Assembly (NCBI RefSeq): GCF_055900595.2 | Contig: NZ_CM148325.1 | Direction: 5' to 3' (one strand) | DNA: 64,000 nt | Shown here: one piece after another, positions 61,028 through 62,847 of the stretch | Layout of the letters: the number at the start of each line of letters is the position of its first letter | Numbering within the stretch: the stretch's first letter is position 1 | Made by a program: the position numbers and the translations under genes | The notes under the pieces: generated by a model | Told to the model about the DNA's origin: nothing | The model's input: the letters and a program-made list of their open reading frames with translations, nothing else | The model's database searches: none

Positions 61028-61987
61028 ATGACAGGATTATCTGAGCAGGCAAAAGAACTTCATATGATGATGGGGCGGAGAAAACCGCCGAAGATACAGG
61101 CTGTTCTTAACACCCGATACTGGAAAAACACAGAAAAAACGATAAAAAGAACTGTAGGTATGAATATTCATACGCTCAGTCAGTGGTGTGGAGAACAATA
61201 TGAGAAGATGTTTATTTCAAAAGTGGCAGAAGTCTATATGCTCCACCATACGGCAGCAATATTGAGGCGTAAAGGAGTTTATGTGGATGTTTTTAAGATT
61301 CCCTCAAAAATAATGAACCCGCCTGAAGCGAGAGCCAATTGTACTGGTTGCCCTTCTTCTCAGAATGTCTCTCATTTTTTTGCTGATTCTGAGCCTAACA
61401 TCATAAATTTTTCTGAAAGTATAAGAATAAATTATTCATATACTCTAGTTCCAGCCTATATAAGGAAAAAAGTCTCATCTCTGATGGGGGATTCAGAACT
61501 TCGTTATGTGTATTCATTTCCCGGTAGTTTATATTCTTATCTTCTTGAGAAACATCCATTGTCAGAAGTTAAAAAACTGATGGAGGATTTGCCTTCAACG
61601 GAAGATGAAAACTTCAGGAGGAGTGAAACAGGTAGCCAGTATTTGAAGGGGATTCTCGGTGTAAAAACAAGAGTATCTGAACTTTTTATAAGGCAGTTTT
61701 CTTTGCCGTTTAGATTTCTCCACACTAAAGAATATGTAAGAGACGTCATATTTAAGCCTGTAGAAAATGATATGTCGTTAAGTGAAGAACTGGCCCATGT
61801 GTTATTTTTTACATTATTGCATTCGGATATAATGTCCAGGTTTAGTTTAAGAGAATTATTCTTCAGAATAGAAAGTGGACGTGATAATAATAAGAAAAGG
61901 GATCTTATACGCGAATATGTAAGCGATGTAACAAAAGAATATTCGTTATGTATACCTGGCATAGTCAGTCGGCACGATAAAAAATAG
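61028..61987 (+). CDS. uncharacterised protein (319 aa), AT-rich cargo
   Basis: Long ORF in AT-rich region; no motif I can assign; convergent with 62044-62847. Confidence 0.55.
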   Translation: MTGLSEQAKELHMMMGRRKPPKIQAVLNTRYWKNTEKTIKRTVGMNIHTLSQWCGEQYEKMFISKVAEVYMLHHTAAILRRKGVYVDVFKIPSKIMNPPEARANCTGCPSSQNVSHFFADSEPNIINFSESIRINYSYTLVPAYIRKKVSSLMGDSELRYVYSFPGSLYSYLLEKHPLSEVKKLMEDLPSTEDENFRRSETGSQYLKGILGVKTRVSELFIRQFSLPFRFLHTKEYVRDVIFKPVENDMSLSEELAHVLFFTLLHSDIMSRFSLRELFFRIESGRDNNKKRDLIREYVSDVTKEYSLCIPGIVSRHDKK

Positions 61988-62043
61988 TCAGTATCATCCC
62001 GTGCATATGATGTATGGTCGGGATGAAATGGTGAACGTGGTGG

Positions 62044-62847
62044 TTATTGTATCGCCCAGTATGCCCTGGTAATGAGTTCCTTTATGATTTCTGACTTACT
62101 TTTGTTTTCTTTCTGCGCGATAAAAAGAAGTTGCTGATACTGAAAATCCTTAAGACGAATATTTACCTGTTTATCTGTTCCTGAACTGACTGACATCTGT
62201 TGGTTATTCCGGGAGTGAATTCGCGCACGCGCTCGGCTCTTTCTTTTATAAAACGCTGCATTCATCTTTCTGAGTAACATGTTCTTTATCTCAATATCGT
62301 CGGCAGGGTTGTTTTCAATAAGACAGGTATCGAAAAAAGCATTAATGAGAAGCTTTCGTTCAGTATTATTCTGAGGCTGAATGTGTTGCAGGCCGCTCAG
62401 GGAAAATAATCGTTTTTTCTTAATGTAATTCCATGACCATTCTGTGTCATCAGTTCCCTCCCGAAAGTGTCGTGGAACGTGGATATTATCAAAGGTGAAT
62501 GCCCATTCATTTTCCATACGATAACAGAACTGAGCTATCTGATTTATATTAAAACGGGAGCGCATGAAGGATATCCAGTCACGTAATACCTTTTTCCTTT
62601 TTTCATGGGTGTCAGGGTATGAGGGAAAATGGTATTCACGATAGGGTATTGATTCGGGCGCAGAACCGCGCTGAAAAATCCCCATCTTCTTATAACTGGC
62701 TTTACTGATATAAAGCCATACCCAGAACACGACTCTTTTATTATTCAACCACCCGGTGCCACCCCGTTTTGCTGTGGTTGTTGTACCAGGAAAAATGACA
62801 AGAAATATTTCTGGTTTTATTAAATCGGAAATGCCATCTGCGCTCAT
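62044..62847 (-). CDS. uncharacterised protein (267 aa) with C-terminal RHH-like segment
   Basis: C-terminal ..KQVNIRLKDFQYQQLLFIAQKENKSKSEIIKELITRAYWAIQ resembles ribbon-helix-helix DNA-binding motif; N-terminal domain unassigned. Confidence 0.55.
   Translation of the reverse strand: MSADGISDLIKPEIFLVIFPGTTTTAKRGGTGWLNNKRVVFWVWLYISKASYKKMGIFQRGSAPESIPYREYHFPSYPDTHEKRKKVLRDWISFMRSRFNINQIAQFCYRMENEWAFTFDNIHVPRHFREGTDDTEWSWNYIKKKRLFSLSGLQHIQPQNNTERKLLINAFFDTCLIENNPADDIEIKNMLLRKMNAAFYKRKSRARARIHSRNNQQMSVSSGTDKQVNIRLKDFQYQQLLFIAQKENKSKSEIIKELITRAYWAIQ

What the first reader, a model, noticed from the sequence alone, without database searches (positions are those of the whole stretch)
61028..62847. 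Uncharacterised convergent gene pair in AT-rich cargo of a CP4-57-like element: candidate novel defence or addiction module
Two sizeable ORFs (319 aa plus strand, 267 aa minus strand) sit just beyond the YfjP-like GTPase, where CP4-57-type elements carry variable cargo (in K-12 this zone holds yfjK and rnlAB). Both are markedly AT-rich versus the flanking conserved genes, and I can assign no known family to either. The 267-aa product ends in a ribbon-helix-helix-like segment (..VNIRLKDFQYQQLLFIAQKENKSKSEIIKELITRAY..), suggesting a DNA-binding regulator or antitoxin fused to an unknown N-terminal domain. Position plus lack of homology makes this the best candidate in the window for an undescribed system.
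Basis: inference. Interest (0 to 1): 0.7.

Follow-up and report, generated by a model that had tools for sequence, protein, structure and literature searches.

The report
Conserved fast-evolving island gene pair
Two real, always-paired genes of unknown function sit at a fixed spot in a widespread family of E. coli genomic islands: one encodes a ribbon-helix-helix DNA-binding protein, the other a protein with no characterised relatives that occurs as sharply different alleles, which makes the pair a good but unproven candidate for a new control or conflict module.

Summary
ORF A (61028-61987, +, 319 aa) and ORF B (62044-62847, -, 267 aa) exist, are AT-rich, have strong ribosome-binding sites and evolve as coding genes. 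They are not orphans and not one-off cargo. Diverged homologues of both sit convergently right after the YfjP-like GTPase in CP4-57-type islands of Escherichia, Salmonella and Citrobacter; B-like relatives also occur in Hafnia and Klebsiella. The window's type is in 42 of 5426 complete E. coli genomes. A distant type of the same two families is in 742 more, including an ST131 strain.

B ends in a ribbon-helix-helix. A palindrome unique in the 64-kb window (TGACAT-N9-ATGTCA) overlaps its promoter and recurs upstream of distant homologues. A has no Pfam, NCBIfam, PADLOC, PHROG, PDB or characterised fold neighbour.

Within the window's lineage, A carries old mosaic alleles (62-64% aa identity, dS 0.55-0.8), while B and both flanks are 95-100% identical (dS about 0.1).

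My best reading, at about 0.4, is a backbone-linked module: an autoregulated DNA-binding protein plus a conflict-facing partner. A classical toxin-antitoxin layout was tested and not met. A defence role is neither shown nor excluded. Function remains untested.

The parts
60030..60914 (-). YfjP-like GTPase gene. It is the invariant left neighbour of the pair, transcribed divergently from A.
   Evidence: Annotated 'GTPase family protein' in S51. It lies next to the A homologue in every locus that extends that far, with a 98-130 nt intergenic gap. It is 53-70% identical across genera, where A and B are only 23-41%.
60961..60989 (+). Promoter-like site for A (TTATCA-17-TATAAT).
   Evidence: 10 of 12 consensus matches. 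It lies in the stretch that stays 96-100% identical across all A allele classes. Consensus match only; function not shown.
61017..61022 (+). Shine-Dalgarno GGAGGT of A, 5 nt before the ATG.
   Evidence: Read directly from the sequence.
61028..61987 (+). Gene A: a 319-aa, basic (pI 9.3), mostly alpha-helical protein of a new uncharacterised family.
   Evidence: ORF. dN/dS about 0.4. No Pfam, NCBIfam, PADLOC, PHROG or PDB match. Remote homologues P0022-P0029. Residues invariant or nearly invariant across the family alignments: W32, N34, T35, K40, R41, Y70, L72, H73, A76, Y138, P142, R146, F164. Fold neighbours are all uncharacterised proteins.
61090..61980 (+). Hypervariable, mosaic body of A, made of old alleles inside a conserved frame.
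   Evidence: Nucleotide identity falls to 58-76% here in L003, L004 and L005 (65-89% in L002), while both flanks stay at 95-100%. dS is 0.55-0.8, against about 0.1 for B. The window allele and L007 are identical up to codon ~240, then pS is 0.4-0.5.
61316..61432 (+). Lineage-specific insert in A (residues 97-135), predicted disordered.
   Evidence: Absent from the remote homologues. pLDDT 23-28. pN is about equal to pS in codons 91-120.
61994..62026 (.). Stem-loop between the two stop codons; it may act as a two-way transcription stop.
   Evidence: Inverted repeat I19. RNA fold of -19.6 kcal/mol (z -2.6) on the + strand and -16.1 kcal/mol (z -2.7) on the - strand. There is no adjacent T-run, so terminator function is inferred only.
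62044..62847 (-). Gene B: a 267-aa, basic (pI 9.9), tryptophan-rich protein with a helical N-terminal part and a C-terminal ribbon-helix-helix.
   Evidence: ORF. dN/dS 0.05-0.3 for most pairs. Full-length homologues at 34-37% identity, E 1e-55 to 7e-62. hhalign to the E. coli 746-type B' gives probability 99.7%. Structured parts of the model have pLDDT 75-90.
62047..62172 (-). Ribbon-helix-helix DNA-binding domain of B (residues ~226-267).
62854..62859 (-). Shine-Dalgarno GGAGGT of B, 6 nt before the ATG.
   Evidence: Read directly from the sequence.
62875..62899 (.). Operator-like palindrome ACTGACAT-N9-ATGTCAGT overlapping the promoter-like site of B.
   Evidence: The TGACAT-N(5-13)-ATGTCA pattern has one match in 64 kb, with 0.05 expected. 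It overlaps the promoter-like site at 62915-62887. The same palindrome is the only alignable 30 nt between the window and L009 in the region upstream of B. ACAT-N0-12-ATGT occurs upstream of B in 7 of 10 distinct loci, with 0.47 expected; the pattern was chosen post hoc. Binding by B is inferred.
62901..63770 (.). About 870 bp of AT-rich DNA upstream of B with no convincing gene, found only with this type of the pair.
   Evidence: Only the 42 genomes that carry this A-B type cover it; DNA from ~63770 onward is shared by 1866 genomes. No AlpA or Gp2 remnants. No credible Rfam match. The small ORFs are not convincingly conserved. Role unknown.

Best explanation
A and B form a two-gene module that belongs to the backbone of CP4-57-type integrative islands. 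It is not swappable cargo.

B is a DNA-binding protein. Its C-terminal ribbon-helix-helix, presumably as a dimer, binds the palindrome that overlaps B's own promoter, so B sets its own level. It may also control neighbouring promoters.

A is read towards B from its own promoter. The two 3' ends abut or overlap, so transcription of one gene is likely to interfere with the other.

A is a basic helical protein of a new family. It is the conflict-facing part of the module: it is kept as old, recombining alleles. In the 746-type E. coli lineage (and, less markedly, the Citrobacter-type clade), the variable part is the N-terminal region of B instead. This pattern is expected of proteins that recognise or resist something variable, such as a phage or a rival island.

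What is shown: the genes are real, the linkage and position are conserved, B has the RHH fold, the palindrome is present, and A carries the allele pattern.

What is inferred: B binds the palindrome, B autoregulates, the genes interfere transcriptionally, A and B cooperate, and the module faces a conflict partner.
For: Linkage and position. The 3.1-kb stretch spanning both genes is contiguous in 42 of 5426 genomes, and A and B are each in 42. Searching from A recovers B homologues. Searching from B recovers A homologues. All have the order GTPase(-), A(+), B(-), with stop-to-stop gaps of -26 to +85 nt in 15 loci.

Family breadth. hhalign links the window's families to the type found in 742 further E. 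coli genomes (probability 99.6% and 99.7%, E 1.6e-24 and 1.8e-26). AFDB neighbours are uncharacterised proteins from Salmonella, Hafnia, Citrobacter, Klebsiella, Budvicia, Providencia and Vibrio.

Fast evolution. A is 23-31% and B 23-41% identical across genera, where the adjacent GTPase is 53-70%.

Allele pattern. The divergence is confined to 61090-61980. dS is 0.55-0.8 for A against about 0.1 for B. The alleles are mosaic, with breakpoints inside A.

B as DNA binder. RHH superpositions at 0.7-1.5 A. A unique palindrome overlaps its promoter and is conserved in distant loci.

Slot context. In K-12 the same slot holds AbpAB and RnlAB (PMC10732053).
Against: There is no functional evidence of any kind. 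A has no recognisable domain, so 'conflict-facing partner' rests only on its evolutionary pattern. A recent sweep or gene conversion of B and the flanks could produce the same pattern. The palindrome pattern was chosen after seeing the window, some of the loci are related, and the 746-type B' lacks it. No A-B contact could be read from the joined model, because no PAE output is available. Klebsiella islands have a B-like gene and no A, so B can work without A. A fixed backbone position argues for an island housekeeping role at least as much as for a conflict role.
Confidence: 0.4

Rival explanations
1. The pair is a toxin-antitoxin or abortive-infection module. A is a new kind of toxin or effector. 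B is its antitoxin, which also represses transcription through its RHH. Phage infection or loss of the island frees A.
For: The closest structural matches to B's C-terminus are RHH antitoxins: ParD/PrpA, TacA and DinJ, plus AFDB entries named 'Antitoxin'. The pair co-occurs strictly in E. coli. An operator-like palindrome sits at B's promoter. The island is rich in TA genes such as CbtA/YeeU and ParDE. In K-12 the slot holds RnlAB and AbpAB.
Against: The genes are convergent with separate promoters and ribosome-binding sites in all 15 loci, not a bicistronic operon. The RHH is at the C-terminus of a 267-aa protein, whereas in my knowledge RHH antitoxins are small and carry it at the N-terminus. 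A matches no toxin or defence model. A diverges to 62% identity while B stays at 97-100%, which is odd for a tightly co-evolving toxin-antidote pair. B occurs without A in Klebsiella.
Confidence: 0.2
2. The pair controls replication, copy number or segregation of the excised island. B acts like CopG/RepA2-type copy-control repressors or ParG/MatP-type site-binding proteins, working on island DNA near the rolling-circle-type (Gp2/YfjJ) initiator genes. A is an accessory factor.
For: Weak hits of B-family members to RepB-RCR_reg (PF10723), RepA (PRK13702), IncL/M RepC and ParG. The subfamily profile hits MatP at E 9e-4 over B residues 133-260. B's gene lies upstream of Gp2/YagK_YfjJ initiator-like genes. 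Iteron-like repeats lie at 63898-64000.
Confidence: 0.12
3. A and B are two unrelated genes that stay adjacent only because both are old passengers of the island. There is no joint function.
For: No interaction has been shown. Klebsiella has B without A. A and B show different evolutionary regimes in the window's lineage.
Against: The convergent, abutting arrangement persists across homologues as low as 23% identity and across several genera, while the surrounding genes vary. This is hard to explain without selection on the arrangement.
Confidence: 0.08

Closest known systems
Ribbon-helix-helix antitoxins of type II TA systems (ParD/PrpA, TacA, DinJ)
   Same: The last ~42 residues of B adopt the same beta-alpha-alpha fold (1.2-2.0 A rmsd). 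A palindrome lies at the gene's own promoter. The gene sits in a mobile element next to a partner gene.
   Different: B is 267 aa and carries the RHH at its C-terminus behind a large tryptophan-rich helical region. The partner gene is convergent, not co-transcribed. The partner resembles no known toxin. B also occurs without A.
MatP (macrodomain Ter protein; PDB 4d8j, 3vea)
   Same: Both have a helical bundle followed by an RHH. The subfamily profile aligns B residues 133-260 with MatP residues 10-128 (E 9e-4). MatP's matS site, GTGACRNYGTCAC by my own knowledge, is also a palindrome with a GAC core.
CopG/RepA2(CopB)/RepB-type plasmid copy-control repressors and ParG
   Same: Small RHH repressors that bind repeats at their own or at rep promoters. 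B-family members give weak hits to these families.
   Different: All hits are sub-threshold. Those proteins are 45-95 aa, whereas B is about three times larger. No ParA-type or Rep partner lies adjacent.
Stl-type master repressors of phage-inducible chromosomal islands (SaPIs). This is an analogy of how it may work, not a homology claim, and rests on my own knowledge.
   Same: An island-encoded DNA-binding regulator with a conserved DNA-binding part and a fast-diverging remainder. In the 746-type, the C-terminal ~60 aa of B' are nearly invariant while the protein overall drops to 48% identity.
AbpAB and RnlAB, which occupy the same yfjP-yfjJ slot in E. coli K-12 CP4-57
   Same: The same position in the same island family. 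Both are anti-phage systems (PMC10732053 for AbpAB; RnlAB by my own knowledge).
   Different: No homology to A or B. Each is co-directional, not convergent. They are genuine replaceable cargo, whereas A/B-type pairs recur at this site across genera.

Membership tests
Type II toxin-antitoxin module with RHH antitoxin | Toxin and antitoxin are co-transcribed as an adjacent, co-directional operon. | tested here: not met
   The genes are convergent in all 15 loci. Each has its own Shine-Dalgarno and promoter-like site.
Type II toxin-antitoxin module with RHH antitoxin | The antitoxin carries an RHH DNA-binding domain and autoregulates at a palindromic operator. | tested here: inconclusive
   The RHH fold is supported and a palindrome lies at the promoter. 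However, the RHH is C-terminal in a 267-aa protein, and binding has not been tested.
Type II toxin-antitoxin module with RHH antitoxin | The toxin belongs to a recognisable toxin family or is toxic when expressed alone. | tested here: not met
   No Pfam, NCBIfam, PADLOC, PHROG, PDB or characterised fold match for A or its homologues. Toxicity itself cannot be tested with these tools.
Known anti-phage defence systems (PADLOC-DB v2.0.0) | At least one protein matches a defence-system HMM. | tested here: not met
   Zero families at E<=1 for the window pair, and zero at E<=0.1 for nine proteins from related loci (A/B homologues plus the two L028 slot genes). The library dates from 2023, so later systems are not covered.
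Ribbon-helix-helix (CopG/Arc/MetJ) superfamily, for B's C-terminus | Beta-alpha-alpha fold. | tested here: met
   [not shown]
Ribbon-helix-helix (CopG/Arc/MetJ) superfamily, for B's C-terminus | A sequence match above the family threshold. | tested here: inconclusive
   Pfam RHH_1 gives E 0.09 for the window protein and at best 0.0026 among family members. phrog_876 gives E 0.002. All are below curated cut-offs.
MatP family | A significant and robust sequence match to MatP. | tested here: inconclusive
   E 1.4 with a single sequence, 9e-4 with the 6-sequence subfamily profile, and no hit at E<=1 with the 12-sequence superfamily profile. Pfam's MatP models did not hit.
MatP family | A C-terminal coiled coil after the RHH, used for tetramerisation and bridging. 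| tested here: not met
   B ends at residue 267, directly after the second RHH helix.
ParG/ParA-type partition module | An adjacent ParA-type NTPase partner. | tested here: not met
   No Pfam domain of any kind in A or its homologues. The ParG match is only E 0.25.
CP4-57-type integrative island (context of the pair) | The characteristic gene set: YfjP GTPase, DUF932/YfjQ, antirestriction, RadC, CbtA/YeeU and Gp2/YfjJ-family genes. | tested here: met
   The annotation of the near-identical S51 locus (99.0% identical over 60900-64000; gene A identical) and of all related loci shows this set. K-12 CP4-57 was used for comparison.

The most novel reading that the evidence does not exclude
The pair is an undescribed two-protein anti-phage or inter-element exclusion system that is native to the backbone of CP4-57-type islands. 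A would be an effector or sensor with a new fold, kept polymorphic by frequency-dependent selection. B would be a sensor-regulator that couples a variable helical domain to an RHH. The system would be present in at least 14% of complete E. coli genomes (42 + 742 of 5426), including an ST131 strain.
Probability: 0.25. Interest if true: 0.8.

Novelty: new variant of a known kind. Interest (0 to 1): 0.55.

Why it matters
The two families have no annotation in any library searched, and I found no paper on them. Together they occur in roughly one in seven complete E. coli genomes, including an ST131 strain, and in several other enterobacterial genera. They always sit at the same place in a very common but poorly understood island family.

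The sharp contrast between gene A (old, mosaic alleles) and its nearly invariant surroundings is the signature usually left by host-parasite or element-element conflict. That makes the pair a concrete, clonable candidate either for a new defence or exclusion function or for the missing regulatory switch of CP4-57-type islands.

Even the conservative reading adds something. It defines two new protein families, a probable operator, and a fixed landmark for annotating these islands.

Tried and rejected
1. Spurious ORFs. Rejected: the frames stay open at 62% identity, dN/dS is below 1, and both have strong ribosome-binding sites.

2. An orphan pair. The word-indexed search found only one cluster for B. 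That was a sensitivity artefact, because the exhaustive profile search and the genomic contexts revealed full-length homologues.

3. The first AF2 model of A, from a shallow alignment, was unusable (pLDDT 47). It was replaced by a linker-joined A+B model built on a locus-paired alignment (pLDDT 67, structured parts 75-90).

4. MatP homology. It looked promising with the subfamily profile but vanished with the superfamily profile, so I keep it only as a lead.

5. Scans of species-representative genomes and of viral contigs with the B alignment found nothing that tblastn confirmed.

6. tblastn against phages found nothing for A or B. The only 'plasmid' hits for B were a 5.4-Mb record and a 568-kb assembly fragment labelled as plasmids, apparently chromosomal DNA.

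7. K-12 YfjH, which has a similar length, is unrelated to A or B.

8. The ~870-bp spacer upstream of B is not a decayed AlpA or Gp2 gene and has no credible Rfam match. Its small ORFs are not convincingly conserved.

9. Tyrosine-recombinase or HUH-type catalytic motifs in A were considered because of the conserved Y, H and R residues. I rejected this: the residue order does not fit, and no such fold was found.

10. Literature searches by RefSeq protein accession and by island gene names found nothing on the pair.
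Full report
**Observation**

GC falls from 52-59% in the upstream island genes to 35-41% from about 60800 to the end of the window. Each ORF is preceded by GGAGGT 5-6 nt before its ATG. A also has a 10/12 promoter-like site at 60961-60989.

RefSeq annotates both genes as hypothetical proteins in the near-identical locus of E. coli S51. There they lie between a 'GTPase family protein' and an 'inovirus Gp2 family protein', in an island with DUF932, antirestriction, RadC, CbtA/YeeU and ParDE genes. 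That is a CP4-57-type island; K-12 was used for comparison.

**Are they genes?**

Yes. Eight loci that carry the pair all keep both frames open. Pairwise dN/dS is about 0.4 for A and 0.05-0.3 for most B pairs.

**No known family**

A matches nothing in Pfam, NCBIfam, PADLOC, PHROGs or PDB sequences, whether searched as a single sequence or as a family profile. B gives only sub-threshold ribbon-helix-helix hits at its C-terminus.

**They are not orphans**

The word-indexed protein search suggested that B was a single cluster among 5.8 billion proteins. An exhaustive profile search with A alleles then found remote A homologues of 275-319 aa, plus one 176-aa fragment. Their contigs all show the same layout: DUF932 (and usually a WYL or HTH regulator), then MMR_HSR1 GTPase(-), A-like(+), a convergent 257-275 aa gene(-), and then AlpA and YagK/YfjJ genes. 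The convergent neighbours are full-length B homologues, at 34-37% identity and E 1e-55 to 7e-62.

The reverse search, starting from the B alignment, found further B homologues, each with a convergent A-like gene and, where the contig reaches that far, the GTPase.

Across genera the GTPase keeps 53-70% identity to the window's copy, while A keeps 23-31% and B 23-41%.

Many other E. coli islands carry two 'hypothetical' genes of 310-328 and 262-269 aa at the same site. Profile-profile comparison places them in the same two families (probability 99.6%, E 1.6e-24 for A; probability 99.7%, E 1.8e-26 for B). That type is in 742 of 5426 complete E. coli genomes, including an ST131 strain. The window's own type is in 42.

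Structural neighbours in AFDB are uncharacterised proteins from Escherichia, Salmonella, Hafnia, Citrobacter amalonaticus, Klebsiella, Budvicia, Providencia and Vibrio.

Neither protein has a relative in the phage collection, and there is none on a genuine plasmid.

Klebsiella islands carry a longer B-like gene. It is co-directional with the GTPase and has no A gene beside it.

**Anatomy**

The two stop codons lie -26 to +85 nt apart in 15 loci, so the convergent transcripts must abut or overlap. The GTPase-A divergent spacer is 98-130 nt. In the window a stable stem-loop lies between the stops.

Upstream of B, the palindrome ACTGACAT-N9-ATGTCAGT (62875-62899) overlaps the promoter-like site at 62915-62887. 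The TGACAT-N(5-13)-ATGTCA pattern has a single match in the 64-kb window, where 0.05 is expected. The same palindrome is the only alignable 30 nt between the regions upstream of B in the window and in L009, where the B proteins are 37% identical. Related palindromes of the form TTGACAACATT/AATGTTGTCA lie at the same place in L015 and L010. ACAT-N0-12-ATGT occurs within 120 nt upstream of B in 7 of 10 distinct loci, against 0.47 expected from shuffles. That pattern was chosen after seeing the window, some of the loci are related, and the 746-type lacks it.

**Structure**

A linker-joined A+B chain, modelled with an 11-row alignment paired by locus, gave pLDDT 75-90 in the structured parts.

B's last ~42 residues superpose on RHH domains of ParD/PrpA, TacA and DinJ, and on many CopG or antitoxin models, at 0.7-2.0 A.

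Both proteins are basic, with pI 9.3-9.9.

**The unusual feature: alleles of A**

Among loci that carry the window's type, divergence is confined to the body of A. Identity drops to 58-76% across 61090-61980 in STEC316, GPEC484-624 and a metagenomic contig (and to 65-89% in a second contig). The first ~60 nt of A, its promoter side, all of B and the DNA beyond B stay at about 95-100%.

Synonymous divergence is 0.55-0.8 in A against about 0.1 in B. Faster protein evolution alone cannot explain that. The A alleles are old, and the frame around them is young or homogenised.

The alleles are mosaic. The window's allele and that of strain cq9 are identical up to about codon 240 and then differ at pS 0.4-0.5. 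Segment types also re-assort among alleles.

One 39-residue insert (residues 97-135) is lineage-specific, is predicted disordered and evolves with pN about equal to pS.

In the 746-type lineage (and, less markedly, the Citrobacter-type clade), the variable part is instead the N-terminal region of B, while the RHH is nearly invariant.

**Interpretation**

The pair is a conserved, fast-evolving module tied to the island backbone.

The best-supported mechanistic element is that B is an RHH DNA-binding protein that autoregulates at the palindrome. This rests on the fold and on the conserved operator-like site. Binding itself is inferred.

A's activity is unknown. Its allele pattern points to an interaction with something variable.

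I rate a regulator-plus-conflict-facing-partner module at about 0.4. A toxin-antitoxin or abortive-infection module gets 0.2: it fails the operon test, and B occurs without A. Replication or partition control gets 0.12: it has only sub-threshold hits, and A has no NTPase domain. Mere neighbours get 0.08.

The defence idea gains indirect support from the slot, which in K-12 holds AbpAB and RnlAB (PMC10732053), and from the polymorphism. No member of either family matches a PADLOC model, and no experiment exists.

**Novelty and score**

Both families are undescribed in every library and literature search I could run. The architecture does not fit a known system: a large tryptophan-rich protein with a C-terminal RHH, convergent with a partner of a new fold.

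Because function is untested, I classify it as a new variant of a known kind, namely RHH-regulated two-gene modules of mobile elements. I give 0.25 to the reading that it is a genuinely new defence or exclusion system. Interest is 0.55.

Noticed in passing
window 63898-64000 (runs off the window end); L001 17995-18130: Iteron-like direct repeats of about 25 nt (TAyTATATACACsTATTTyAyTAAG) lie in backbone DNA upstream of the Gp2/YfjJ-family gene. That backbone is shared by about 1866 E. coli genomes. The copy number differs between the window and strain S51. They may be a binding array or origin for the Gp2-like initiator.
   Followed up: partly
window 62901-63770: About 870 bp of AT-rich DNA upstream of B is found only in the 42 genomes that carry this A-B type. 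It has no ORF above 62 aa, no AlpA or Gp2 remnant and no credible Rfam match. A 53-aa ORF (63159-63320, +) is intact in 8 of 9 loci, but its changes are mostly non-synonymous. A 62-aa ORF (63030-63218, -) is intact in 9 of 9. Its role is unexplained.
   Followed up: partly
L025 8614-9711 (Klebsiella aerogenes NCTC10006); L024 8626-9713 (K. pneumoniae strain 176): A 365-aa B-like protein has an acidic, probably disordered N-terminal extension. It is co-directional with the GTPase and has no A gene. In K. pneumoniae it is split by a frameshift. Both records are labelled as plasmids but appear to be chromosomal DNA: a 5.4-Mb record and a 568-kb assembly fragment.
   Followed up: partly
[not shown]
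   Followed up: partly
L008 8001-9044 (E. coli 504239); P0008-P0010: Some A alleles have lost the usual stop codon and run on by 7-28 extra residues. In L008 the extended gene overlaps B's 3' end by 29 nt. The C-terminus of A therefore tolerates extension.
   Followed up: no
window 60904-60971: An imperfect 24-nt inverted repeat (79% complementary, 20 nt between the arms) spans the GTPase start codon and the GTPase-A divergent promoter region. It may be a regulatory site for the divergent pair.
   Followed up: no
window 62184-62196: A third copy of the operator half-site (AACTGACTGACAT) lies inside the 3' part of B's coding sequence, about 200 nt beyond A's stop codon. ACTGACAT occurs 6 times in the window where 2.3 are expected, and 3 of those are in or next to B.
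   Followed up: no
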